NCBI RefSeq assembly: GCF_000018105.1 | Contig: NC_009925.1 | Location: 1,020,001-1,052,000 of the forward strand | Direction: 5' to 3' | Length of the DNA stretch: 32,000 bases | DNA from: Acaryochloris marina MBIC11017 | GTDB lineage: Bacteria > Cyanobacteriota > Cyanobacteriia > Thermosynechococcales > Thermosynechococcaceae | In this document: positions 640 through 31,591 of the stretch, piece by piece | Layout of the letters: each line of letters starts with the position of its first letter | How positions within the stretch are numbered: the first letter of the stretch is position 1 | Made by a program: the position numbers and the translations under genes | The notes under the pieces: model-generated | What the model was told of the DNA's origin: nothing | The model's database searches: none | Seen by the model: only the letters and a program-made list of their open reading frames with translations

Positions 640-3600
640 CTAAAGCGGTGGGCAGAGGTGGCGATGCTGATGTCCCTGAGCATTATTTTTTAGAAAATTT
701 GAGATCCAACGACAAGCATATTCCTCTTCTTTTGTCTGTAGAAGTTTCGCCAAATTCCAGCGCATTAGGGTTTGATCATCGCTCGCAGACACTAAGGATT
801 TCCCATCTGGACTAAATGTAATGCTACGGATCGCACGATCATGTCCAATTAAGGTTCGAAACAGCTTGGCTGGTGTCGAGCTTGAAAGATCAACCTGCCA
901 GAGTTTGACCGTGTTATCCATCGCCGCAGATGCTAACCATTTGCCATCTGGGCTAATGGCGACCTCCCGGACCGCAGATTGATGTTCAGGCAGGGTTTGA
1001 ATTATTTGACCTGAAGCGGTCCACAGCTTGATATCGCTATCTTCTGAGGCCGATACAAACCACTGGCTGTTAGGACTTATGGCCACACTTTGAACAGCTG
1101 CACGATGCTTAGATAGCGTTGTTTTTAGGGTGCCATCCCTTGCCCACAGTTTTAGGGTCTTGTCGAGAGAAGCGGAAACGAACCATTGACCGTCGGGGCT
1201 AAAACTAACATCACGAACGGTGGCTTGATGTCCCTCTAAAATTTGAAAGGGAGCCTGTTCCAATTGCCCTTGATCATCAAATTGCCAGCGTTGAATCGTA
1301 TTATCGGCGGACCCTATCGCTAACTGGTGGCCATCGGGACTGTACTCTACTGACCATAGGCGGCTTGGCGTTGATCTTCGGGTGCGAAGTGAGCCATCGG
1401 CATTCCAGATATGAATATAGCCACCGCGATCCGTTGTCACGAGTTCTGGTTTGTTAGGGTGATAGGCCAACCCATGTAAGGGGCCACCCAATTCAGGCGA
1501 TGTGACTTGAGGCACGGCTTCAAAGGTTGTTGATGTCTGACGATGCCAGCGATAAATTTTGTGGCTAGGGGAAATCGCTGCTAGCTGCTGTCCATCCGAG
1601 CGATAGGCCACTTGACTGAGAAAATCTGTGGGGCCACCTAACCGTTGCCAGAAGGGATTGTTAAGCTGCCAATAGCGCACTGTTCCGTCTTCTGAAGAAG
1701 ACAATAAAAACTGACCATCCGGGCTAAATGTAACGGACCAAACGGTCGCTTGATGTCCCTTGAAGGTTCTCAATAACTGGCCATTTCGGTGCCAAAGTTT
1801 CACAGTTTTGTCGGACGACACTGAGGCGATTAGTTCACCATTGGGGCTAAACGCCATGTCTCGGATTAAGGCACCATGACCTGGTAACTCACTGACTAAC
1901 TTGCCATTTTTAGTCCTAATTCGAATTTTTTGATCCAGCCCCGTTGCTGCAATATAGTCCCCGTTTGGGCTTAATCGTATGATTCGCAATAATTCGGGAG
2001 CTGGTGGCAGTTCCCGAATCAGGGTGCTATCGGCAGCGCGAATTTGAATGACATGGCCTTTGTAGTTATTAGCAAGATAGCGACCATCCGCACTTTGGGT
2101 AAAAAACTTCGTCTTGGTAATGGAGTTGATCAGTTCGCCTGTTCGGGTCCAAAACTGTACTTTGTGGCTATTCGTAGAGGTCACAATCCGATCCCCCTTA
2201 GCATTGAAGACTAAGGCACGGACCTCAGCATCAAACGATGAGAGGGTATGGGTGACCTTGCCTTGCAAATTCCACAGCTTAACGGTTCTATCGGCTGAAG
2301 CTGAAGCAAGGGTTTGCCCATCTGGACTAAAGACGACTTGGTTGACCTCGGCTTGGTGATTAAACTTTTGCCATCGCCTTTGTCCGTCCCAACCCCAAAG
2401 ACTGACAGAGCCATCGGCGGCGGCAGTGGCAATTTGGGTGCCATCTGGGCTAATCGCAACATGCTCCACTTTAACGCCTAAAGTTAGACGATTCCGCTCC
2501 ACCATCCGGTGGACGTTACTACGGAGTGTGGCTTGGATCTCGTTCGCTAGACCATCAGCCCCCTTTTGCAGGTGATCAAGTTGTTGATGAGCTTGAATAA
2601 TGTCGGCGAGGGCTTCCAGTTGCCGATGGGAATCCATGTTTCCCTGAGATGAGGAGAGGAGCGCTCTAATGTTACTTTCTAGGGTCTTTTGCTCACTGGC
2701 CTGGGCCAGTTCAGTCTGTTTTTGGGTCGTTTGTGCTTGCTGATAGGCAGCTCCTCCTAAGCCCACGGCAATTAAGAAGGCAATAGAGACGGTAATGGAA
2801 AAGCGCTTTTGTAGTTTGGTGGTTTGCTGTTCCTGTTGAAGCTGAGATTCAATGGCCCGTGCCCGTTCGGCTTCGAGGGTCATTTGAATCTGTTGGCGAT
2901 CGCATTCCACAGACGCCGTTAAAAACTGATGATCCTCATCGCTGAGTCGTTTCCCTTGGGACCAGTCCAGCGCCTCTTGCAGGGTTTGACCCCGCAATAA
3001 CCGGGATTCATCTTGCTGCTCTGAGGCCAACCAAAATTCCAAAGAGGCTTTGTAGGGACGGAGTCGGCCGAGCTGCTTCTCCACCCAAGCTTGATTGAAA
3101 ACCTGGCGATAGATGGGGTTCTTAACCCGAAGTTGTCCATCCTGCTTAACGACTAACCCCGATAGAATCAGGTCGGTTTGATCTGGGCTCTCTTCTGCCG
3201 GGATAGTGGTAGCCTGCAACACCTGCTGATAAAGTCCTAAGCGCCGACCAGCAGAAGCTGAATGATTGAGCAATCGATTCTGCACCGTTCTTAAATGTTC
3301 CGGTTCATCCTGGGATTCCCAATGCTGCAGGATATGGTCTTTCACAACTTGCTCGACCCAGTTCGCTTCCTTCCCCGGTGCAATGCTGACGGCTTCATCG
3401 CTAGCTTGAGCCACGAGTTGACAGAGCTTTTGGGTCAGGAACGGCTGACCTTGGGTCCAGTACAAAATCGCAGCTAAGATTGCATCGGCATCCCCACCCT
3501 TCAAATCCAGCCCCTGAGCCAATATCTTACTTTCCGCCACCGTAAAACCTTGGAGAGGAATAGCAGTCCCTAAATTAAAGGGCGTACGCTGACGGTTTTG

Positions 3601-4164
3601 GATTAGGTCCGACGGTGTGGCTACGCCAAAAAGGGCAAAGTTGAGTCGACAGTAGTCTGGATCCACTGCCCGTTGGTTATAGCAAAAGCGAATCAAGGCG
3701 AAGAAATCATCAACAGAAAAGGGCAACCCCAAAATACTGTCGATTTCATCGATAAAAATCACCAGTTGCTGATCGGGGAACTGCTCTAGCAGCCCAACCT
3801 TGATAAATTGACTTAATCGCTGCAGTAAAGAAATATCGGCTTCGTCTTGCCACCAAGATTTGAAGTCAAACTGACGGATCAGTTTGAAGTTGCGCCACAA
3901 ATCTTTGATCATCCCTTTGTACCACTGCAAAGGAGTGATATTCTCGCTACCGATATTGGTCATATCGACAACCGCACATCGATAGCCCTCTGCCTGCAAA
4001 CGGTGACGCGTCTGCACGAGTAGAGACGACTTGCCCATTTGCCGGGAGTTCAGGACATAGCAGAACTCGCCCCGTTTTAGGGCAGCGTAGATCTGCTGAT
4101 CGGCTTGCCGGGCAATATAGGTCGACGCACTGGCTGAAAGACTACCACCAATCTGATATTGCAT
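640..4164 (-). CDS. AAA-like (AAA_35/STAND-like) P-loop NTPase, winged-helix-like region, coiled coil, one hydrophobic helix, then 14 WD40 repeats (1174 aa)
   Basis: Walker A NSRQMGKSS (aa 39-47, nt 4024..4050). Walker B LVIFIDE (aa 134-140, nt 3745..3765). LSGLVV..LRVKNPIYRQVFNQAWV motif. Hydrophobic FSITVSIAFLIAVGLGGAAY (aa 455-474). Fourteen units of the SPDG....S.D.T(V/I)KLW type fill aa 560-1138. Confidence 0.9.
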   Translation of the reverse strand: MQYQIGGSLSASASTYIARQADQQIYAALKRGEFCYVLNSRQMGKSSLLVQTRHRLQAEGYRCAVVDMTNIGSENITPLQWYKGMIKDLWRNFKLIRQFDFKSWWQDEADISLLQRLSQFIKVGLLEQFPDQQLVIFIDEIDSILGLPFSVDDFFALIRFCYNQRAVDPDYCRLNFALFGVATPSDLIQNRQRTPFNLGTAIPLQGFTVAESKILAQGLDLKGGDADAILAAILYWTQGQPFLTQKLCQLVAQASDEAVSIAPGKEANWVEQVVKDHILQHWESQDEPEHLRTVQNRLLNHSASAGRRLGLYQQVLQATTIPAEESPDQTDLILSGLVVKQDGQLRVKNPIYRQVFNQAWVEKQLGRLRPYKASLEFWLASEQQDESRLLRGQTLQEALDWSQGKRLSDEDHQFLTASVECDRQQIQMTLEAERARAIESQLQQEQQTTKLQKRFSITVSIAFLIAVGLGGAAYQQAQTTQKQTELAQASEQKTLESNIRALLSSSQGNMDSHRQLEALADIIQAHQQLDHLQKGADGLANEIQATLRSNVHRMVERNRLTLGVKVEHVAISPDGTQIATAAADGSVSLWGWDGQRRWQKFNHQAEVNQVVFSPDGQTLASASADRTVKLWNLQGKVTHTLSSFDAEVRALVFNAKGDRIVTSTNSHKVQFWTRTGELINSITKTKFFTQSADGRYLANNYKGHVIQIRAADSTLIRELPPAPELLRIIRLSPNGDYIAATGLDQKIRIRTKNGKLVSELPGHGALIRDMAFSPNGELIASVSSDKTVKLWHRNGQLLRTFKGHQATVWSVTFSPDGQFLLSSSEDGTVRYWQLNNPFWQRLGGPTDFLSQVAYRSDGQQLAAISPSHKIYRWHRQTSTTFEAVPQVTSPELGGPLHGLAYHPNKPELVTTDRGGYIHIWNADGSLRTRRSTPSRLWSVEYSPDGHQLAIGSADNTIQRWQFDDQGQLEQAPFQILEGHQATVRDVSFSPDGQWFVSASLDKTLKLWARDGTLKTTLSKHRAAVQSVAISPNSQWFVSASEDSDIKLWTASGQIIQTLPEHQSAVREVAISPDGKWLASAAMDNTVKLWQVDLSSSTPAKLFRTLIGHDRAIRSITFSPDGKSLVSASDDQTLMRWNLAKLLQTKEEEYACRWISNFLKNNAQGHQHRHLCPPL
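751..2487 (-). repeat. Coding tandem array of 14 WD40 repeat units (two predicted 7-bladed propellers) inside CDS 640..4164
   Basis: Counted in the translation, for example ISPDGTQIATAAADGSVSLWGW, FSPDGQTLASASADRTVKLWNL and FSPDGKSLVSASDDQTLMRWNL. The recurring plus-strand DNA motif ccatctgggctaa (and variants) is the reverse complement of the SPDG codons. Confidence 0.85.
2896..2903. repeat. HIP1 palindrome GCGATCGC
   Basis: Exact octamer read from the sequence. Confidence 0.95.
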
Positions 4165-4179
4165 AAGCTTCAGGCCAGG

Positions 4180-5850
4180 TTAGTCAGCCGCAATAGCAAT
4201 CTGCACCCGATCTCGCCCTAATGCTTTGGCCTGGTAAAGTGCCTGATCCGCGGCTTTGATTAAACTCGTCGGATCCTGATCGAGGGTGGGAATGACACTG
4301 GCGACCCCCATACTGGCCGTGACAATTTTGGTAGCGACTGTAGAACGATCGTGACTTATCTTTTTCTCCTTGATGCAGTTCAGCATAGTCTCAGCCATTT
4401 GAGCCGCACTTTCTGCAGTGGTGAGGGGCAGCACCACCACAAATTCTTCGCCGCCATATCGTGCCACCAAGTCCGAGGCTCGTTGAGCGCACTTTTGCAT
4501 AGCCTGGGCAACCTGCTGAAGGCATTGGTCTCCAGCCTGATGACCGTAGGTATCGTTGTAGAGCTTAAAGCAGTCTACATCTGCTAAGATCACGGCCAAA
4601 GGAGCCTGCATCTCGCCCAACTGTTGCCACTTTGCCTGAATAAACTCATCAAAGGACCGACGATTGGCAACTTGGGTAAGGGCATCTAAATTAACAAGCT
4701 GTTTTAATTGCGTATTCTCTTCTTCCAGTTGGGCTAACCGTTCTCGCCAAGCATCCAGTTGACTGAAGGTTTTGTGAACAAAAAATTGCCTATAGAGTTC
4801 ACAGGAGATCAGGCACTCATTTCCCCTTAGCTCCACTAACCCTAAGCTATTGAGCTTATAAGCAATGACGGGTTCTAATTCAAACCCGCTCTTTGCTGAT
4901 ACCACATCCTTGAGGGCCGCCGCTAGCTCAGGCTGGTGATTGAGGGTGGTTAAGAGCTTCTGGAGGTGGTGGCGATAGATGCTTGCTTGGGTGGGAGCCT
5001 CCTGCAAAAACTGGTCTAGGGTCTTTTGGCCATAGCTAATGTCATACAGGGCCATATTGACTAAAGCAGGACGCCCACCCACTAAGTCCATTAACTGCTG
5101 GGCCTCACGGTTGGATTCCCAGTCCAAACCATAGGCATAGGCCAATGCTTTGACTTGGGCCAAATTAAACGGCGGCAACCGAATCGGCAAGCCCACATTA
5201 AACGGCGAGTGATTAATATTCAGGGGAACATACACTTCTGTGGAGTGACTAACCATGAGTCGCAGATGGCGAAAAACATCACCTTGTTTGGCTTGCTCAT
5301 GCCAAAAGCGCAACAAGGGTAAGAAATCGACGGCAATGGCGACATGTTCAAAGATCTCTTCAACATGCTGAAGAGCAATGACCAGGGGGGTATCTAGCTC
5401 AGCCAGCAAATAATCTTCAAAATACATGGTGCAGCTTAGCTTTGCCCCAATGTCGTCATCCCAATAGTCATCTAAACAAGAGGGCTTTCTCAGATGATAA
5501 GTAACGCTAGCGCAGAACCACCGCAAGAACTTGCCAATACTGGTAAAAATATCTTGATCGGCGGTTTGAAAGTTGATTGTCACCGTCTGATAGCCCTGGG
5601 CACGAGCATGAGCAGTGAGCCGCAATAATAGAGAGCTTTTTCCCATGCCTTGGGGCGCTTGAATACGCACTAAACCGCCCGGTTTTTCAATGCCCTGATA
5701 GGCATGATTCTCCAGGGGTAATCGCTCAATATAGAGGGATGAATCTAACGAAATCGCACCGCTAGGGAAGTGAAGATCAGCAGGATTAATTGAGGGTCTT
5801 GTTGGAACAGAAGAAGGAGGGTCGAGTGGTGACTCAGAAACCGTATTCAT
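4180..5850 (-). CDS. AAA-like (AAA_35-type) P-loop module with degenerate Walker B, coiled coil, and C-terminal GGDEF diguanylate cyclase (556 aa)
   Basis: P-loop APQGMGKSS (aa 65-73, nt 5632..5658). Walker B position reads LVIALQH (aa 156-162). Coiled coil LDAWRERLAQLEEENTQLKQL. GGDEF domain has DVDCFKLYNDTYGHQAGD, GGEEF (aa 466-470, nt 4441..4455) and the RxxD I-site RASD (aa 457-460). Its stop lies 15 nt upstream of the ATG of the WD40 gene. Confidence 0.9.
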   Translation of the reverse strand: MNTVSESPLDPPSSVPTRPSINPADLHFPSGAISLDSSLYIERLPLENHAYQGIEKPGGLVRIQAPQGMGKSSLLLRLTAHARAQGYQTVTINFQTADQDIFTSIGKFLRWFCASVTYHLRKPSCLDDYWDDDIGAKLSCTMYFEDYLLAELDTPLVIALQHVEEIFEHVAIAVDFLPLLRFWHEQAKQGDVFRHLRLMVSHSTEVYVPLNINHSPFNVGLPIRLPPFNLAQVKALAYAYGLDWESNREAQQLMDLVGGRPALVNMALYDISYGQKTLDQFLQEAPTQASIYRHHLQKLLTTLNHQPELAAALKDVVSAKSGFELEPVIAYKLNSLGLVELRGNECLISCELYRQFFVHKTFSQLDAWRERLAQLEEENTQLKQLVNLDALTQVANRRSFDEFIQAKWQQLGEMQAPLAVILADVDCFKLYNDTYGHQAGDQCLQQVAQAMQKCAQRASDLVARYGGEEFVVVLPLTTAESAAQMAETMLNCIKEKKISHDRSTVATKIVTASMGVASVIPTLDQDPTSLIKAADQALYQAKALGRDRVQIAIAAD

Positions 5851-6015
5851 TCTAAATAGAGGCTTAGCTTAAAGTTGAGCAAAACCAGGAGGTCAGTTGG
5901 TTTGAGCCTATTGTGCCCAGAACGGGTTGGCATTCTCAATTCCAACTCAACTCTTCTCCTAGAGGGTTCTTCTCGTCTCCGATGAGCCTCGCGATATCGA
6001 CTAGAGCTGAGGAGT

Positions 6016-7032
6016 TTAATTAGAGAGGTGATGCCAAGGGGGCCGATGTCCAGGGTGGGGCGGACGTCGATGTCGAGGGGGTCGATGTCGAGGCGGATGG
6101 TGTCCGGGTGGATGCTGCTTAGGAGGAGAGGGAGGTTGGTGGTGTGGCCTCCGCGAGGGCGGCAGATGATTGCGGGCAAAACTTGAATCAGGGGTGCCTC
6201 GAAAACATCTAGGAATAAACGGATAGGTCTCAGTAATGTAGTAGTGATAGATCCCTTGAGGGTGCTCCGGGGTGACACCGACTCTGCCATTACACTGGTC
6301 CAGATCGCCTGCACCCTGAACAAACTGATAATCCTGCTCAAAGGTGCCGTCATATTGCCCGAGGGGGCCATCGGGTCTTCGGCCTGACTTTAACCGATAA
6401 CTCGGTTTCATTTTTTTTAGGTCTGAATTGGGATCTTGGGCATCGGTATAGCCCTTAAGAGCGTAGATGGGAAATCCATCAGCTGCATATCCCACCAAAA
6501 TCATCGGTTTGGCCGAGAAGAGAGAGGCAATTAAACCTGTGGGTAACCCATGATAGTGATAGGCTCCCGTCGGCTGAACATGGGCATGATGGTCATCCAG
6601 TCCCAAATTGATAGCCCCAGACAAGGCATTGTACCGCCATCCCGATTGGCGATCGTTATTCCAAAATTCTGCCGTTCCTGGATCAAACGGCACTCCATTC
6701 AATGCCACGCCAAACGGCTGTCTCTTCATGGGGGTAATGGTTGCAGCTTGTTGGGGATGAACAGGCACACGATACTGATGCGTTTGGGGTGAGATTCGAT
6801 TGGGGTTGCCCTGATTTGGAAAGGTGCCTGGCGGATGATCAGGGATACCATTACTGGTGATGTAGCGATAATTCCCCTTTACTTCAATGGTGACTTGGTG
6901 CTGGAATGCCAGTTTTTGGGCAATGGTGGACGACCCTTGAGGATGGGTTTGAGCAGCGGACCCCAGCCAAAGGGGTAAACAGATGATGCTCCAATGTCCG
7001 ACCTTTATTCCCCATGTTCGCAGCTTACCCAT
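6016..7032 (-). CDS. Secreted YHYH-domain protein with a His/Pro/Arg-rich C-terminal tail (338 aa)
   Basis: N-terminal signal-like WSIICLPLWLGSAAQ. HAHVQPTGAYHYHGLP motif (YHYH family as I recall it). The tail is PPSRRPHHQPPSPPKQHPPGHHPPRHRPPRHRRPPHPGHRPPWHH. Confidence 0.75.
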   Translation of the reverse strand: MGKLRTWGIKVGHWSIICLPLWLGSAAQTHPQGSSTIAQKLAFQHQVTIEVKGNYRYITSNGIPDHPPGTFPNQGNPNRISPQTHQYRVPVHPQQAATITPMKRQPFGVALNGVPFDPGTAEFWNNDRQSGWRYNALSGAINLGLDDHHAHVQPTGAYHYHGLPTGLIASLFSAKPMILVGYAADGFPIYALKGYTDAQDPNSDLKKMKPSYRLKSGRRPDGPLGQYDGTFEQDYQFVQGAGDLDQCNGRVGVTPEHPQGIYHYYITETYPFIPRCFRGTPDSSFARNHLPPSRRPHHQPPSPPKQHPPGHHPPRHRPPRHRRPPHPGHRPPWHHLSN

Positions 7033-8638: not shown

Positions 8639-9832
8639 TCAATACCCAGGCATATTCTGAGTCGGTTGCCCCTCCACTAAACGGGTATATAGCCCCACTA
8701 GGTTCACGCCCTGGTATAGGGCTAAGGAAGAATAGCGGGCCACATCTTGTTGAGTTTCAGGAAAATATAAACCTAAACCACACAACACTTCAGACTCAGA
8801 ATGGGGCAGAGGGGGACCGAAAAGTTGTCCTCCAGTCTTATGGGACACTATCACCGAGGTTTTGAGAAAATCAGTAAATTCAATGAGTTCATCCTCACTT
8901 TGTTCACTGAATTCCGAGAGACGCTGGAATAGCATGAGTGCATCACAATGCAACTCACCGAAGTATGGATAAGTGGAAATATTTAATTGACTGAGTGAAG
9001 GTAAACGACCCTGAAGAATGGGCTGGAGCAATTTTGAAAGTTGTTCAGGAATTCCCTCAACAGCTTGATTATCCACCAAAGTCAGGGTGTGATACATATT
9101 AGCCCTTTCAGTATCCATGATGGTAAGGGCAGCTTCACGTCCATCTGCTAACGCGTCAAGTTTTTTCAGCCAATCCTCATAGTAGTAATTTGGGGCACCC
9201 AAGGTAAGTTGCGAGGCAAGGGTGTATCGTGCACAGTCCTTGGCTTCGTAAATCACTTCGAGGGTCGCTTTATTGCAATTTTGAAAATACAGTAACTCAA
9301 CCTGGCCCTGCGTCGATTGGTTGAATTGACGGATAGCTTTGGTAAATTGGTCAACGCTCATCCAGGTGCGCGTCTGACGATTATGGGTGTGATCATCTGG
9401 ACTCAGTTCATTGATCTTGCCGCCATGACCCACAACAATGACAGCCCAATGCTCAGCTTCAAAGGTTTGCTTGGCCCAATTCAAATACGCGACTAAAGCA
9501 GTGTGATCGCTACTGTCTTCTTCTAAAACCTTGATCTCAGTAACAGTACCCTTAATAATCTGACGACGACGCATTCGGGACTTTCCCCAATAGTCAGATT
9601 GCACGGCTATTACAACGTCAGTGTTTTGGGTCCCACAGACCAACATCTCAATAATGGGTTCACCAAAATGTGACAAGTCGTTGTCGTAGGGCATCCAATA
9701 CAAAACAGCCCATTTATAGCGTGCATGGGCTGAAGCCAATTGGGCCGTTTGAGCAAAGTTTAATTCACGGCTCACTATCCCAGGCAAGCAAGCTGCGCCT
9801 ATCGCAGACTGAATAAACTTCCTTCGTTTCAT
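8639..9832 (-). CDS. Clostripain-like (peptidase C11 family, caspase-fold) cysteine protease with a twin-arginine signal peptide
   Basis: MKRRKFIQSAIGAACLPGIV...ASAHA is Tat-like (RRxFI). WAVLYWMPYDNDL resembles the C11 N-terminal motif W.(I/V).VYM.GDNNL. Putative catalytic His136 is in VVGHGG (nt 9425..9427) and Cys186 in LYFQNCN (nt 9275..9277). Confidence 0.65.
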   Translation of the reverse strand: MKRRKFIQSAIGAACLPGIVSRELNFAQTAQLASAHARYKWAVLYWMPYDNDLSHFGEPIIEMLVCGTQNTDVVIAVQSDYWGKSRMRRRQIIKGTVTEIKVLEEDSSDHTALVAYLNWAKQTFEAEHWAVIVVGHGGKINELSPDDHTHNRQTRTWMSVDQFTKAIRQFNQSTQGQVELLYFQNCNKATLEVIYEAKDCARYTLASQLTLGAPNYYYEDWLKKLDALADGREAALTIMDTERANMYHTLTLVDNQAVEGIPEQLSKLLQPILQGRLPSLSQLNISTYPYFGELHCDALMLFQRLSEFSEQSEDELIEFTDFLKTSVIVSHKTGGQLFGPPLPHSESEVLCGLGLYFPETQQDVARYSSLALYQGVNLVGLYTRLVEGQPTQNMPGY

Positions 9833-14606: not shown

Positions 14607-14782
14607 GCACCTCTTCTAAAATTGCCCCTGTTCAGTCTCCAGACGAGACCTCTCAAATCGTTGTCGGTCAACAGATAGGCAAAAATTTTCAGCCCCCAGA
14701 TGACATCCAGGGATATGTTGGTATACTAGATGAGCTTTTGTGCATTAGTCACCCTGACTGATGTCGGAGCGCTTCCCAATTT

Positions 14783-14864
14783 GCGGATGTGGTGGAATTG
14801 GTAGACACGCACGCTTGAGGGGCGTGTGGCTTATGCCTTGCGAGTTCGATTCTCGCCATCCGCA
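14783..14864 (+). tRNA. tRNA-Leu, anticodon GAG (class II, long variable arm), no encoded CCA
   Basis: Folded by hand. Acceptor GCGGATG/CATCCGC plus discriminator A. D arm GTG-GAATTGGTAGA-CAC. Anticodon stem CACGC/GCGTG with loop TTGAGGG. Variable arm GGC-TTAT-GCC. T arm GCGAG-TTCGATT-CTCGC. Confidence 0.9.
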
Positions 14865-14897
14865 TAGCTATTCCTTAAAAATATTGAAATATCAGCC

Positions 14898-17014: not shown

Positions 17015-17302
17015 ATGGACAATATCATTCCTCTATTTGGTACTTCGCAACCAGAGATTAAGGTTGTGAAGCCCAGCTCCTTTGAAGAAGCCCAACAAGC
17101 AGTCGATCACCTTAAAAGTGGTTGTCTGGTGATGTGTAATGTTTCTGAACTACCCTTTAAGCTAGCTCAGCGCATTATCGATTTTTTATCCGGTAGTATC
17201 GATATTCTCTCTGGAGATGTCGTGAAAGTGGGTAGTGGCGTTTTTCTCTACAGCTTGACAGAAATTGAAGTGGCAGGCTTCCAGGATCAGCGATCTGCTT
17301 AA
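17015..17302 (+). CDS. Short SepF-family (cell-division, FtsZ-binding) protein, core domain only (95 aa)
   Basis: VVKPSSFEEAQQAVDHLKSGCLVMCNVSELPFKLAQRIIDFLSGSIDILSGDVVKVGSGVFLYS aligns closely with the B. subtilis SepF core as I remember it ([53 protein letters not shown]). An in-frame TGA at 17009..17011 rules out a longer N-terminus. Confidence 0.8.
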   Translation: MDNIIPLFGTSQPEIKVVKPSSFEEAQQAVDHLKSGCLVMCNVSELPFKLAQRIIDFLSGSIDILSGDVVKVGSGVFLYSLTEIEVAGFQDQRSA

Positions 17303-29373: not shown

Positions 29374-29937
29374 TTACAAACCTTCCATGGGAACGCCCAA
29401 GAAACGAGCGATCTCAGCTGCTTGATTCTCAATTTTGTCCAGAGCCATAGGTTGCCCCGCTCGGGTGAGAGGAATATCATTACGCCCTTTGATTCTCAGA
29501 TAGATGGTCCGTTGGGGATTGAGTCCCTCACGGATCTTGATCTGGACGGATTGAATATTCTCTAAAGGGTATGTTTGCTCAACTTTTCGGTTCTTGCCTG
29601 GGCGGCCCCAACGAAAGAGTCGAAATTTACCAGAATCTTGACTGAATTCATTAAAACCGGCTCCGACGTTCCAGCTTATGGTTAGCCATAAGTAGGTTGC
29701 GAGCAGTAAACCACAAGTACCGTAGAAGGAAAGAGCGATGCCTTGAGGGATAAAAATTAGATCAACAGCATTACCAGTTGGCAGGAGATCGACTTTGAAA
29801 TAGCTAGAAAGACCAGCTAAGAAAAAACCAACCCCTCCAATGGAGACCATCGTCGCGATCATGTAATTGCTAAACCGGCGAGTCCCAAGAACTTCGTAAC
29901 GCAAAGTTTGCTTATCTAATAGTTTCTGTGTGGTCAT
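29374..29937 (-). CDS. ycf4: Photosystem I assembly protein Ycf4
   Basis: RYEVLGTRRFSNYMIATMVSIGGVGFFLAGLSSY, IFIPQGIALSFYG and PLTRAGQP are typical Ycf4. The ATG at 29935..29937 gives the usual 188 aa; the ORF is open to 30012. Confidence 0.9.
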   Translation of the reverse strand: MTTQKLLDKQTLRYEVLGTRRFSNYMIATMVSIGGVGFFLAGLSSYFKVDLLPTGNAVDLIFIPQGIALSFYGTCGLLLATYLWLTISWNVGAGFNEFSQDSGKFRLFRWGRPGKNRKVEQTYPLENIQSVQIKIREGLNPQRTIYLRIKGRNDIPLTRAGQPMALDKIENQAAEIARFLGVPMEGL

Positions 29938-30316
29938 GGTCGGATAAGTTCTTGTGATTCCTAAACTAATGATGAGCACTGATATATGAGTATAAGCTGT
30001 CCAGCTCAACAATTGATGAGGCTATAGCTGACTCCTAAGAATCTATTCCTAGGTTCCCAATTGCAAGCACGCTTGCTGTCACATCCAGATACTACTAGCG
30101 TTATATATAAATTTGATGAGATCGATAAAGTGGTCAATTCAATATATGAAGTTTTATTTCAGTAGCCCTACATAACTTTACTTCTCTTAAGGCCTAGTTG
30201 ATGGACAGTCATTTGGGGAGCCAACCCCCAAAAAACCGATGGTTGAGGTAGGTAAAGTTTTGTACTCAACATTGCACGTGAGGTGGCTAAACCTCTGTGG
30301 AAGTGCCTTTGTAGCC

Positions 30317-30535: not shown

Positions 30536-31591
30536 ATGACCATAGCAGTCGGACGCGCCCAGGAGCGAGGATGGTTTGACGTCCTCGACGACTGGCTTAA
30601 GCGTGATCGGTTCGTCTTTATTGGTTGGTCAGGTATCCTACTTTTCCCCTGTGCGTTTCTATCCATCGGGGGATGGTTTACCGGCACAACTTTCGTAACT
30701 TCCTGGTACACCCACGGTCTTGCTAGCTCCTACCTAGAAGGGGCTAACTTCTTGACCGTTGCTGTATCCACTCCCGCCGACAGCCTCGGCCACTCCCTAC
30801 TTCTACTTTGGGGACCCGAAGCTCAAGGTGACTTCACCCGCTGGTGTCAGCTGGGTGGATTGTGGAACTTCACCACATTACATGGTGTCTTCGGCTTGAT
30901 CGGCTTCATGCTGCGTCAATTCGAGATTGCCCGTCTAGTCGGCGTGCGTCCTTACAACGCAGTTGCCTTCAGCGGTCCTATCGCCGTGTATGTTTCCGTC
31001 TTTTTGATGTATCCTTTGGGCCAATCCAGCTGGTTCTTTGCACCTAGCTGGGGTGTAACAAGCATCTTCCGATTCTTGTTATTTGCTCAAGGTTTCCACA
31101 ACCTAACCCTCAACCCCTTCCACATGATGGGTGTTGCAGGTATTTTGGGTGGTGCGCTGTTGTGCGCCATTCACGGAGCCACTGTTGAGAACACCTTGTT
31201 TGAAGACGGTCAAGACGCCAATACATTTGCTGCGTTCACTCCGACCCAAGCAGAAGAGACCTACTCCATGGTCACTGCTAACCGATTCTGGTCTCAGATT
31301 TTCGGGATTGCCTTTTCCAACAAGCGTTGGTTGCACTTTTTCATGTTGTTCGTTCCTGTGACTGGTCTATGGGCTTCTGCCATTGGCCTCGTGGGTATCG
31401 CTCTCAACATGCGTGCTTATGACTTCGTTAGCCAGGAAATCCGGGCTGCTGAAGACCCTGAGTTCGAAACCTTCTACACCAAGAACATTCTCTTGAATGA
31501 AGGTCTGCGCGCTTGGATGGCACCCCAAGACCAAATCCATGAAAACTTCATCTTCCCTGAGGAGGTTCTACCACGTGGAAACGCCCTTTAA
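30536..31591 (+). CDS. psbD: Photosystem II reaction-centre protein D2
   Basis: Near-complete identity to the D2 pattern ([33 protein letters not shown]...PFHMMGVAG...[10 protein letters not shown]), 351 aa. Confidence 0.97.

What the first reader, a model, noticed from the sequence alone, without database searches (positions are those of the whole stretch)
640..5850. Tandem paralogous AAA_35/STAND-like NTPases with split outputs: a GGDEF cyclase followed by a membrane-anchored double WD40 propeller
Seen: two same-strand genes lie 15 nt apart (stop at 4180..4182, next ATG at 4162..4164). Both open with the same ~350-aa module. Matching segments, WD40 gene first: YQIGGSLSASASTYIARQ vs FPSGAISLDSSLYIERL; RQMGKSSLL vs QGMGKSSLL; DQQLVIFIDEIDSI vs DTPLVIALQHVEEI; TPFNLGTAIPLQGF vs SPFNVGLPIRLPPF; WTQGQPFLTQKL vs LVGGRPALVNMAL; LSGLVV...VKNPIYRQVF vs SLGLVEL...ISCELYRQFF. 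The C-termini then differ. One has a coiled coil and a GGDEF domain. The other has a coiled coil, one hydrophobic helix, a second coiled coil and 14 WD40 repeats.

Established: GGDEF domains make c-di-GMP only as dimers. STAND-type NTPases oligomerise when their repeat sensor domain binds a ligand.

Inference: the pair could form a hetero-oligomeric switch. In that model the WD40 paralog senses a signal, and co-assembly through the shared NTPase module brings the GGDEF domains of the partner together. That would be a sensor/second-messenger module resembling nucleotide-signalling conflict or developmental systems. I know of no characterised function for this pairing.
Basis: partly seen in the sequence, partly recalled or inferred. 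Interest (0 to 1): 0.7.

Follow-up and report, generated by a model that had tools for sequence, protein, structure and literature searches.

The report
Paired NTPase receptor and c-di-GMP cyclase
Two adjacent cyanobacterial genes encode a membrane receptor and a c-di-GMP-making enzyme that share an uncharacterised NTPase module; other cyanobacteria keep the two module types as neighbouring genes or fuse them into one protein, so they probably form one signalling device of a kind nobody has studied.

Summary
On the minus strand, G (4180..5850, 556 aa) is AAA_35 + coiled coil + intact GGDEF. W (640..4164, 1174 aa) is AAA_35 + one hydrophobic helix + a 14-blade WD40 region. The spacer is 15 nt.

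The two AAA_35 modules are old paralogs (25% identity) from two subfamilies, here called A35g and A35w. They are not a recent tandem duplication.

The link between them is conserved:
- An A35w gene follows 20 of 60 A35g-GGDEF genes across cyanobacterial orders.
- It fills 21 of 39 same-strand downstream slots but only 7 of 648 other slots.
- Many cyanobacteria fuse an A35w and an A35g module into one protein, sometimes with a class III cyclase-like domain between them.

Three points are new:
- W's helix follows the positive-inside rule. In relatives WD40 is replaced by the extracytoplasmic CHASE2 domain. The propellers are therefore probably outside the cytoplasm.
- GGDEF-fused A35g modules have a degenerate Walker B (window: QH). 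A35w keeps DE and a conserved Arg.
- The neighbourhood is housekeeping, with no defence-system or viral signal.

Best reading: a split transmembrane receptor/cyclase system coupled through heterotypic AAA_35 contact. Physical interaction, topology and enzyme activity are inferred only. I found no published study of AAA_35.

The parts
4180..5850 (-). Gene G: soluble AAA_35 (A35g subtype) + coiled-coil stalk + GGDEF diguanylate cyclase, 556 aa
   Evidence: ORF. Pfam AAA_35 E 1.2e-140 and GGDEF E 3.6e-51. TIGR00254 GGDEF E 1.3e-48. AlphaFold model mean pLDDT 85.8. No hydrophobic 19-mer reaches the membrane-helix threshold used (maximum 1.44).
4777..5769 (-). G AAA_35 module (residues 28-358)
   Evidence: It aligns to W's module with hhalign probability 98.8%.
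5632..5658 (-). G Walker A, APQGMGKSS (intact GK[ST])
   Evidence: G and K are conserved in 81 of 82 A35g sequences.
5365..5382 (-). G Walker B position, VIALQH: both acidic residues are missing (family consensus hhhhNE)
   Evidence: GGDEF-fused A35g modules read NE in 52 of 69 and DE in 2 of 69. The window gene is the only QH.
4690..4755 (-). G helical stalk (residues 366-387) joining AAA_35 to GGDEF
   Evidence: Helix in the model. The top PDB matches include stalk or zipper-GGDEF structures 3i5c and 6ttr.
4207..4692 (-). G GGDEF domain (residues 387-548). GGEEF is at 4441..4455 and the RxxD I-site (RASD) at 4471..4482.
   Evidence: 44% identity and rmsd 1.5 A to the WspR GGDEF domain.
4165..4179 (-). 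15-nt spacer between the G stop codon and the W start codon
   Evidence: The simple scan finds no promoter-like or terminator-like site there. In 20 other pairs the gaps run from -143 to 351 nt, most under 100.
640..4164 (-). Gene W: AAA_35 (A35w subtype) + single membrane helix + double WD40 propeller, 1174 aa
3094..4146 (-). W AAA_35 module (residues 7-357). Walker A NSRQMGKSS is at 4024..4050, canonical Walker B VIFIDEID at 3739..3762 and conserved Arg193 at 3586..3588.
   Evidence: The fold resembles ORC2/Cdc6, RuvB, MalT and Avs4.
2746..2802 (-). W hydrophobic helix FSITVSIAFLIAVGLGGAA (residues 455-473), inside a long helix at 409-511. Predicted topology: N-terminus in, C-terminus out.
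   Evidence: The equivalent helix is present in 123 of 138 A35w proteins. K+R counts are 4.8 on the N side and 1.9 on the C side, with N>C in 116 of 123.
715..2484 (-). W WD40 region (residues 561-1150), about 14 blades, so two 7-bladed propellers. Predicted to lie outside the cytoplasm.
   Evidence: Pfam WD40 E 3.3e-104. PDB 2ymu E 1.7e-210. Blade count. The location is inferred.
5910..5939 (-). Weak sigma-70-like promoter match upstream of G (9 of 12 positions)
   Evidence: The number of such matches in the region is no higher than in shuffled sequence, so this is a lead only.

Best explanation
G and W form a split transmembrane signalling unit.

W is the receptor. A double beta-propeller lies outside the cytoplasm, a single membrane helix sits inside one long continuous helix, and the cytoplasmic AAA_35 NTPase keeps Walker A, a canonical Walker B (DE) and a conserved Arg.

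G is the soluble output. Its AAA_35 paralog keeps the P-loop but has lost the Walker B acidic pair and lacks the Arg. A helical stalk follows, then a catalytically complete GGDEF domain with an I-site.

Proposed sequence of events. A signal at the propeller changes the nucleotide-dependent state or oligomerisation of W's module. That module contacts G's module heterotypically. The contact brings two G stalks and GGDEF domains into, or out of, the productive dimer, so c-di-GMP synthesis is switched at the membrane.

Shown: the domain content, the motif states, the conserved gene pairing and the natural fusions of the two module types.

Inferred: co-transcription, membrane topology, physical contact, the sign of regulation and enzyme activity.
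For: Conserved pairing.
- An A35w gene follows on the same strand in 20 of 60 A35g-GGDEF genes that have enough downstream sequence. Gaps are mostly under 100 nt. The hosts are diverse cyanobacteria.
- A35w fills 21 of 39 same-strand +1 slots but only 7 of 648 other neighbouring ORF slots (odds ratio 107, Fisher P 1e-23).
- The pairing also appears in independently called genes: the complete genome of Crinalium epipsammum PCC 9333 (11-nt gap), a relative whose G protein is 95% identical, where the YHYH-G-W order is kept, and Roseofilum.
- Paired genes are scattered across the A35g tree, which argues for an old linkage.
- Distances among the A35g modules correlate with distances among their partner A35w modules (Mantel r 0.46; 15 of 5000 permutations reach it).

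Fusions.
- 69 of the 114 best relatives of L077:9965-12148 carry an A35w module followed by an A35g module in one chain. Five have the order g-w and one has g-w-g.
- Some carry a class III cyclase-like domain between the two modules (P0256, P0268, P0287).
- Tandem A35w-A35w proteins with a membrane helix also exist.

Asymmetry of the two modules. GGDEF-fused A35g reads NE, or QH in the window. A35g modules without GGDEF read DE in 11 of 13. A35w always reads DE, except one EE among the 20 partner modules, and has 'RTPFN' where A35g has 'QSPFN'.

Topology.
- The membrane helix is conserved and follows the positive-inside rule.
- WD40 is replaced by CHASE2 in relatives (P0224).
- 32 of 123 relatives end within 40 residues of the helix, including partners of A35g-GGDEF genes in L017, L043 and L045.

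Output domain. The GGDEF motifs are complete and conserved across the family. The domain is close to WspR, a diguanylate cyclase with solved structures.
Against: - Two thirds of A35g-GGDEF genes have no adjacent A35w gene. Three of six sampled A35w-WD40 genes have no A35g neighbour. Pairing is therefore not obligatory, or the partners can be unlinked.
- No experiment or complex model shows contact between the modules.
- The Mantel correlation is confounded by shared species history.
- The g modules in the fusion proteins keep DE, so they are not exact equivalents of G.
- Membrane topology rests on hydrophobicity, charge bias and analogy only.
- The effect of an Asn or Gln at the Walker B position on this fold is unknown.
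Confidence: 0.5

Rival explanations
1. W mainly anchors or sequesters G. The constant AAA_35-plus-helix part of W holds G at the membrane and keeps it inactive or merely localised. The propeller is an accessory scaffold rather than a ligand sensor. Regulation comes from G's own nucleotide state or from product inhibition at the I-site.
For: Partners of A35g-GGDEF genes in L017, L043 and L045 end just after the helix and have no WD40. 32 of 123 A35w proteins end within 40 residues of the helix. G carries an RxxD I-site.
Against: Most partners do carry one or two propellers. Relatives swap WD40 for CHASE2, a recognised extracytoplasmic sensor domain. W keeps an intact NTPase motif set, which a passive anchor would not need.
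Confidence: 0.2
2. The genes are independent signalling proteins. They are neighbours because AAA_35 genes are numerous and tend to cluster in these genomes. The two proteins do not interact.
For: AAA_35 genes do form arrays, for example three A35w-WD40 genes in a row in L086 and several AAA_35 genes in L087. Most A35g-GGDEF genes lack an adjacent A35w gene.
Against: The enrichment is specific to the +1 same-strand position (21 of 39 against 7 of 648). The order is always g then w, with short or overlapping spacers. The two module types are repeatedly fused into one protein.
Confidence: 0.12
3. The pair is an anti-invader (abortive infection-like) system. A STAND-like sensor detects a phage or foreign protein and triggers a nucleotide signal from the GGDEF partner.
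For: The fold is related to STAND proteins such as Avs4 and MalT. AAA_35 modules also occur with TIR (P0316) and with apparent CHAT-type caspase-like regions (L076 and L055, judged from their sequences and not checked by HMM). A two-gene operon pairing an active STAND module with an eroded, effector-bearing one has been described in conflict systems (PMC8195603).
Against: - PADLOC gives no relevant match.
- The neighbours are housekeeping genes.
- 2.9 million viral contigs hold no relatives.
- The sensor is predicted to face away from the cytoplasm.
- The WD40 blades show no DNA-level homogenisation.
- No effector gene is linked, and c-di-GMP is the general lifestyle messenger.
Confidence: 0.1
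4. The hydrophobic segment of W is not membrane-spanning. W is a soluble cytosolic STAND-like sensor with intracellular WD40 repeats.
For: Classical STAND proteins such as Apaf-1 use cytosolic WD40 sensors, and W's blades resemble Apaf-1's. The model shows a single uninterrupted helix with low confidence just after the hydrophobic segment, around residues 476-485.
Against: The segment scores 2.04 on a 19-residue Kyte-Doolittle window. It is conserved in position in 123 of 138 relatives and shows a strong K/R bias on its N side. In relatives it is followed by CHASE2 and further hydrophobic helices.
Confidence: 0.08

Closest known systems
Two-gene operon of paired STAND NTPases, one active and one with eroded NTP-binding motifs that carries the effector (GT4 or HEPN), described by Kaur et al., eLife 2021 (PMC8195603, read)
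   Same: Two adjacent paralogous NTPase genes. One module is canonical and the other degenerate. The degenerate one carries the variable effector. A hetero-multimer is the proposed mode of action.
   Different: The NTPase family differs (AAA_35 here). Here only the canonical module keeps the candidate Arg, whereas both do in that system. The effector is a diguanylate cyclase. The partner is membrane-anchored with a predicted external sensor. The genomic context is not defence-like.
Classical STAND/NLR sensors with WD40 repeats (Apaf-1; bacterial Avs and MalT)
   Same: A P-loop NTPase followed by helical and winged-helix-like parts, with fold matches to MalT 8bob and Avs4 8dgf. WD40 blades resemble those of Apaf-1. 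Nucleotide-dependent assembly is the expected logic.
   Different: The best fold matches are ORC/Cdc6 and RuvB. W has no N-terminal effector. A membrane helix separates the NTPase from the repeats. The effector sits on a second protein.
Stalk-regulated diguanylate cyclases such as WspR, DgcB and phytochrome- or LOV-linked cyclases
   Same: A GGDEF domain preceded by a helical stalk. 44% identity to the WspR GGDEF domain. GGEEF and the RxxD I-site are present. Activation by stalk-mediated dimerisation is the established principle.
   Different: The input module is an AAA_35 NTPase rather than REC, PAS, GAF or LOV. I found no characterised example of that input.
Single-pass receptor enzymes with a cytoplasmic N-terminal catalytic module and an external C-terminal sensor (PknB-type Ser/Thr kinases; CHASE2 receptors). 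This comparison is from general knowledge.
   Same: The predicted N-in, C-out topology with a large external domain. CHASE2 replaces WD40 in A35w relatives.
   Different: The cytoplasmic module is an NTPase with no known catalytic output of its own. The output is delegated to a paralog-bearing partner.

Membership tests
Pfam AAA_35 (PF14516) | Match to the family HMM above the gathering score (27 bits), covering the full model | tested here: met
   G scores 468.5 bits over model positions 1-330 of 331. W scores 102.3 bits over positions 4-330.
GGDEF diguanylate cyclase | GGDEF-domain HMM match, intact GG[DE]EF and the conserved substrate- and metal-binding positions | tested here: met
   PF00990 at 173.6 bits and TIGR00254 at 164.9 bits. 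GGEEF is at residues 466-470. D424, D426, K429, N432, D441, R464 and K542 are invariant in 21 homologs.
GGDEF diguanylate cyclase | Measured synthesis of c-di-GMP from GTP | not testable with these tools
   Needs an enzyme assay.
WD40 beta-propeller | Repeated WD40 blades in a number that can close propellers | tested here: met
   PF00400 E 3.3e-104. Thirteen blades were detected, plus one blade-sized gap. PDB 2ymu, a 14-blade double propeller, matches at E 1.7e-210.
STAND NTPase | P-loop NTPase core with functional Walker A and Walker B | tested here: inconclusive
   W has GKS and DE. G has GKS but QH at the Walker B position, where its family has NE. The feature is met for W and not met for G.
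STAND NTPase | Helical and winged-helix domains after the NTPase core; fold closest to STAND members | tested here: inconclusive
   The model of W residues 1-560 matches ORC2/Cdc6 best (E 2e-6, TM 0.41-0.47), then RuvB. STAND proteins MalT and Avs4 follow at E 2e-5 to 7e-5. This is compatible with the ORC/Cdc6-STAND assemblage but does not point specifically to STAND.
STAND NTPase | Tripartite single-chain layout: N-terminal effector, central NTPase, C-terminal repeats in the same compartment | tested here: not met
   W starts directly with AAA_35 and has a membrane helix between the NTPase and the repeats. G has a C-terminal effector and no repeats.
Known anti-phage defence systems (PADLOC-DB) | Match to a defence-protein model and location among defence genes | tested here: not met
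   The only hits are mad8 at E 0.009 on G's P-loop and a repeat-driven hit on W's WD40 region. The neighbours are YHYH, Maf, YkuD, Peptidase_C11, methionine aminopeptidase and BacA. Viral contigs hold no relatives.
Conserved A35g / A35w two-module unit (defined here) | An A35g-type gene immediately followed on the same strand by an A35w-type gene, or both modules in one polypeptide | tested here: met
   The window pair fits the pattern. The pattern recurs in 20 of 60 loci and in L081, L082 and L083. Fusions are shown.

The most novel reading that the evidence does not exclude
Cyanobacteria have an undescribed route for transmembrane signalling. It uses neither phosphorelay nor a fused sensor-enzyme. 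An external beta-propeller (or CHASE2) receptor controls a cytoplasmic AAA_35 NTPase. That NTPase pairs with a hydrolysis-deficient AAA_35 paralog carrying the output: GGDEF here, and a class III cyclase-like domain, an HTH, a kinase or TIR elsewhere. The A35w/A35g heterotypic pair would then be a general, modular signalling core, comparable in role to the histidine kinase/receiver pair.
Probability: 0.35. Interest if true: 0.8.

Novelty: new variant of a known kind. Interest (0 to 1): 0.62.

Why it matters
- Thousands of proteins in public databases match G, and all 120 best hits (45-95% identical) share its AAA_35-GGDEF layout, mostly from filamentous cyanobacteria. I found no paper on the AAA_35 module.
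- If the pairing works as proposed, it adds a new input mechanism for c-di-GMP synthesis. The control would be nucleotide-dependent heterotypic assembly of ORC/STAND-like modules.
- It would also place WD40 propellers outside the bacterial cytoplasm as receptor domains.
- The natural fusions and split pairs give ready constructs for testing the interaction.
- The active/degenerate asymmetry parallels paired NLRs and ORC, which would tie bacterial lifestyle signalling to the same logic.

Tried and rejected
Literature.
- The term 'AAA_35' matched unrelated strings such as 'AAA35'.
- 'PF14516' gave no paper.
- 'AAA-like domain' with 'cyanobacteria' gave only a genome note.
- The two eLife papers on conflict systems and the 2026 STAND survey do not mention this family or this pairing.
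- The prokaryotic WD40 survey does not discuss a membrane helix or AAA_35.

Searches that gave nothing useful.
- A sequence search of G's AAA_35 region against PDB found only P-loop-level RecA matches.
- The fold search with the full-length G model was dominated by the GGDEF domain and did not classify AAA_35. The W N-terminal model was used for that instead.
- PADLOC gave nothing relevant.
- Tandem Repeats Finder found no DNA-level repeats in the WD40 region, so there is no recent blade amplification.
- The promoter and terminator scan found no more sites than in shuffled sequence.
- The look-up of P0002 (Acaryochloris thomasi) was not on record.
- The viral contig scan found no relatives.

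Ideas dropped.
- A recent tandem duplication is excluded by the 25% identity and the separate subfamilies.
- A dedicated clade of W partners is not seen: paired and unpaired A35w genes are interspersed in the tree.
- A single origin of pairing visible as one A35g clade is not seen either: pairs are scattered across the tree.

Full report
**1. What is in the sequence**

The window is cyanobacterial. It carries psbD at 30536..31591, and its best protein matches come from cyanobacteria.

Two minus-strand ORFs fill 640..5850:
- G, 4180..5850, 556 aa.
- W, 640..4164, 1174 aa.

The G stop codon (4180..4182) and the W ATG (4162..4164) are separated by 15 nt. The W start is credible because homologs begin with the same conserved N-terminus (Y3, G6 and G7 are invariant).

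Pfam places AAA_35 (PF14516) at G 28-358 (E 1.2e-140) and at W 7-357 (E 3e-29). GGDEF is at G 387-548 and WD40 covers W from about 560 to 1150. G and W align at 25% identity over 269 residues (E 2e-13). Profiles of the two families align over the whole module (hhalign 98.8%). Thirteen were detected, and there is one blade-sized gap. The region closely matches the 14-blade structure 2ymu.

**2. Two subfamilies, not a fresh duplication**

Searches with each protein return large, internally conserved families, almost all from cyanobacteria. I call them A35g and A35w.
- The G family is 45-58% identical to G apart from one 95% relative. All 120 best hits carry AAA_35 followed by GGDEF, a minority with an extra N-terminal domain.
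- Relatives of W's N-terminal 560 residues are 50-60% identical in the alignment. Their C-termini vary: one or two WD40 propellers, CHASE2, nothing, or a second AAA_35 module.

HMMs built from each family separate the two cleanly. Each module scores about 550 against 50 bits for its own family versus the other.

**3. Is the pairing conserved?**

A scan of one genome per species returned 80 loci with an A35g gene.
- 60 A35g-GGDEF genes have at least 1.5 kb of downstream sequence. In 20 of them the next gene on the same strand is an A35w gene. The gaps run from -143 to 351 nt, mostly under 100.
- Counted by gene slot, A35w fills 21 of 39 same-strand +1 positions but only 7 of 648 other neighbouring ORFs (odds ratio 107, Fisher P 1e-23).
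- A35w/WD40 is also the largest neighbour cluster found by blind clustering.
- Independent gene calls show the same pair in three more places: the complete genome of Crinalium epipsammum PCC 9333 (11-nt gap), a relative whose G protein is 95% identical, with the order YHYH-G-W, and Roseofilum.
- Starting from the W side, 2 of 6 sampled A35w-WD40 genes have an A35g-GGDEF gene just upstream. One has an HTH-A35g gene nearby and three have none.
- Paired genes lie on many deep branches of the A35g tree and are interspersed with unpaired ones in the A35w tree. This suggests an old linkage that is often lost or rearranged.
- Distances among the A35g modules correlate with distances among their partner A35w modules (Mantel r 0.46; 15 of 5000 permutations reach it). 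Shared species history contributes to that value.

**4. Fusion evidence**

One locus held a 728-aa ORF with an A35w module (8-384) directly followed by an A35g module (387-716). Searching with it showed a large family:
- 69 of the 114 best hits have the order w-g, 5 have g-w and one has g-w-g.
- They occur in many sequenced strains, including Anabaena, Nodularia, Cylindrospermum, Gloeothece and Nostoc.
- Several carry a class III nucleotide cyclase-like domain (PF00211) between the two modules. One carries TIR at the N-terminus and TPR at the C-terminus.
- Tandem A35w-A35w proteins ending in a membrane helix also exist.

Two module types that recur both as adjacent genes and as one chain are a classic sign of functional, and usually physical, association. 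The recurrence of a cyclase-type output (GGDEF or class III) with the w+g pair is notable.

**5. Asymmetry of the two NTPase modules**

Both keep the P-loop GK[ST]. They differ elsewhere.
- W and all 20 partner A35w modules keep hhhhDE at Walker B, with one EE.
- A35g modules fused to GGDEF read NE in 52 of 69, and Q, S, K or T in place of N in most of the rest. Only 2 read DE.
- A35g modules without GGDEF read DE in 11 of 13.
- The window's G is the extreme case: QH, with both acidic residues gone.
- After the predicted sensor-1 strand, A35w has a conserved Arg ('RTPFN', R193 in W). A35g has Gln in 74 of 82, and His in G.

By analogy with AAA+ and ORC-type proteins, this Arg could act in trans on a neighbour's nucleotide. 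That is my inference and was not tested. The pattern fits an active receptor module paired with a binding-competent but hydrolysis-poor output module. A similar arrangement has been described for a different pair of STAND paralogs, where the eroded one carries the effector (PMC8195603).

**6. Fold**

The model of W residues 1-560 has mean pLDDT 82.8.
- It matches archaeal ORC2/Cdc6 best (E 2e-6), then RuvB.
- The STAND proteins MalT and Avs4 follow at E 2e-5 to 7e-5, with moderate TM-scores.

AAA_35 is therefore an AAA+-type core with a lid and a winged-helix-like end, in the ORC/Cdc6-STAND neighbourhood. No AAA_35 structure turned up in PDB sequence searches with G's module or the W-family profile.

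The G model has mean pLDDT 85.8. Its GGDEF domain superposes on WspR at 1.5 A with 44% identity. Helix 366-387 resembles the stalks of the solved stalk-GGDEF structures 3i5c and 6ttr.

**7. Topology of W**

- W residues 455-473 score 2.04 on a 19-residue hydropathy window and lie inside a modelled helix at 409-511.
- 123 of 138 A35w proteins have an equivalent segment 45-60 residues after the module.
- K+R counts are 4.8 on the N side and 1.9 on the C side, with N>C in 116 of 123.
- In relatives the segment is followed by CHASE2 (Pfam E 8e-70). CHASE2 is known as an extracytoplasmic sensor domain (Zhulin et al. 2003; cited from memory, and also listed in the references of PMC5587647). In these relatives further hydrophobic helices follow it.
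- 32 relatives end within 40 residues of the helix.
- G and most of its relatives have no such segment.

The simplest reading is N-terminus in and C-terminus out. The double propeller would then sit in the periplasm, or possibly the thylakoid lumen. This differs from the cytosolic STAND picture and makes W a receptor.

**8. Context**

- The neighbours are YHYH, Maf, an L,D-transpeptidase, a C11 peptidase, methionine aminopeptidase, an amine-oxidase-type flavoprotein, BacA and a GNAT acetyltransferase.
- PADLOC gives nothing relevant.
- 2.9 million viral contigs hold no relative of G.
- The blades are diverged at the DNA level.

These points argue against a defence island or a mobile element. 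Other AAA_35 architectures with TIR domains, and with regions that look like CHAT domains but were not checked by HMM, show that the module family is also used in conflict-type proteins.

**9. Mechanism and confidence**

- I put about 0.85 on the two genes being functionally linked.
- I put about 0.5 on the specific model: receptor W controls cyclase G through heterotypic AAA_35 contact at the membrane.

The sign of regulation is open. A sequestration or anchor variant is the main rival. Independent function, a defence role and a non-membrane W are less likely, for the reasons given under the rivals.

**10. Novelty**

The parts are annotated families, and the logic has precedents in paired active/degenerate STAND modules and in stalk-regulated cyclases. 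Three things appear undescribed in the literature I could search:
- AAA_35 as the input module of a diguanylate cyclase.
- Its pairing with a membrane-anchored AAA_35 receptor.
- An external WD40 propeller.

I rate it a new variant of a known kind, with moderate to high interest.

Noticed in passing
L077:9965-12151; proteins P0241-P0285: There is a large family of single-chain A35w-A35g fusion proteins of about 710-785 aa. They have no membrane helix and no recognised output domain. Their g module keeps a canonical DE Walker B, unlike the GGDEF-fused form.
   Followed up: partly
P0256, P0268, P0287 (about 900-950 aa): A class III adenylate/guanylate cyclase-like domain (PF00211, E 2e-12 to 3e-5) sits between an A35w and an A35g module in one protein. 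This parallels the split W/G-GGDEF arrangement.
   Followed up: partly
L088:5761-9277 and L089:5623-9715: In Cylindrospermum NIES-4074 and in a Nostoc MAG, the w-g fusion gene lies divergently next to an ECF sigma factor gene and an overlapping TPR protein gene. This may be a conserved regulatory neighbourhood.
   Followed up: no
L075:14347-20571 and L077:12188-18046: Proteins of about 2000 aa begin with a Ser/Thr kinase-like region, continue through long helical and sensor-like regions (judged by eye from the sequence, not scanned) and end in an A35w module preceded by a signalling-type helix, where a histidine kinase core would be expected.
   Followed up: no
P0316 (1244 aa): This protein has TIR, then two AAA_35 modules (typed as g then w by my HMMs), then TPR repeats in one chain. 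The architecture is typical of conflict systems.
   Followed up: no
window 6016-7032 (-): A YHYH-domain protein has a C-terminal tail rich in His, Pro and Arg (HHQPPSPPKQHPPGHHPPRHRPPRHRRPPHPGHRPPWHH). A YHYH gene is also the upstream neighbour of G in the 95%-identical relative (L082).
   Followed up: partly
window 5847-6371 (-): A 174-aa ORF overlaps the 3' part of the YHYH gene (6016..7032) in another frame and overlaps the G start by 4 nt. It is probably not a gene.
   Followed up: no
window 8639-9832 (-): A Peptidase_C11 (clostripain family) protein has an N-terminus that resembles a twin-arginine signal (MKRRKFIQSAIGAACLPG).
   Followed up: no
window 14782-14865 (+), 17015-17302 (+), 30536-31591 (+): These are tRNA-Leu(GAG), a 95-aa ORF that looks SepF-like by eye in an otherwise ORF-poor, low-GC stretch, and psbD at the window end. 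Ycf4 lies upstream of psbD at 29374-30012 (-).
   Followed up: no
L028, L031, L039, L041, L044, L048, L054 (upstream of the A35g-GGDEF gene): A35g-GGDEF genes encoding longer proteins (about 620-665 aa) often have a divergently transcribed histidine kinase gene immediately upstream; this was seen in 11 loci, mostly heterocyst-forming genera. Similar extensions in P0059 and P0089 carry Pfam PF26355 (HTH_VMAP-M9).
   Followed up: partly
L001, L027, L050: In three genomes the A35w-WD40 partner is split into two ORFs, with the AAA_35 part and the WD40 part separate. This could reflect frameshifts, assembly errors or decay of the partner gene.
   Followed up: no
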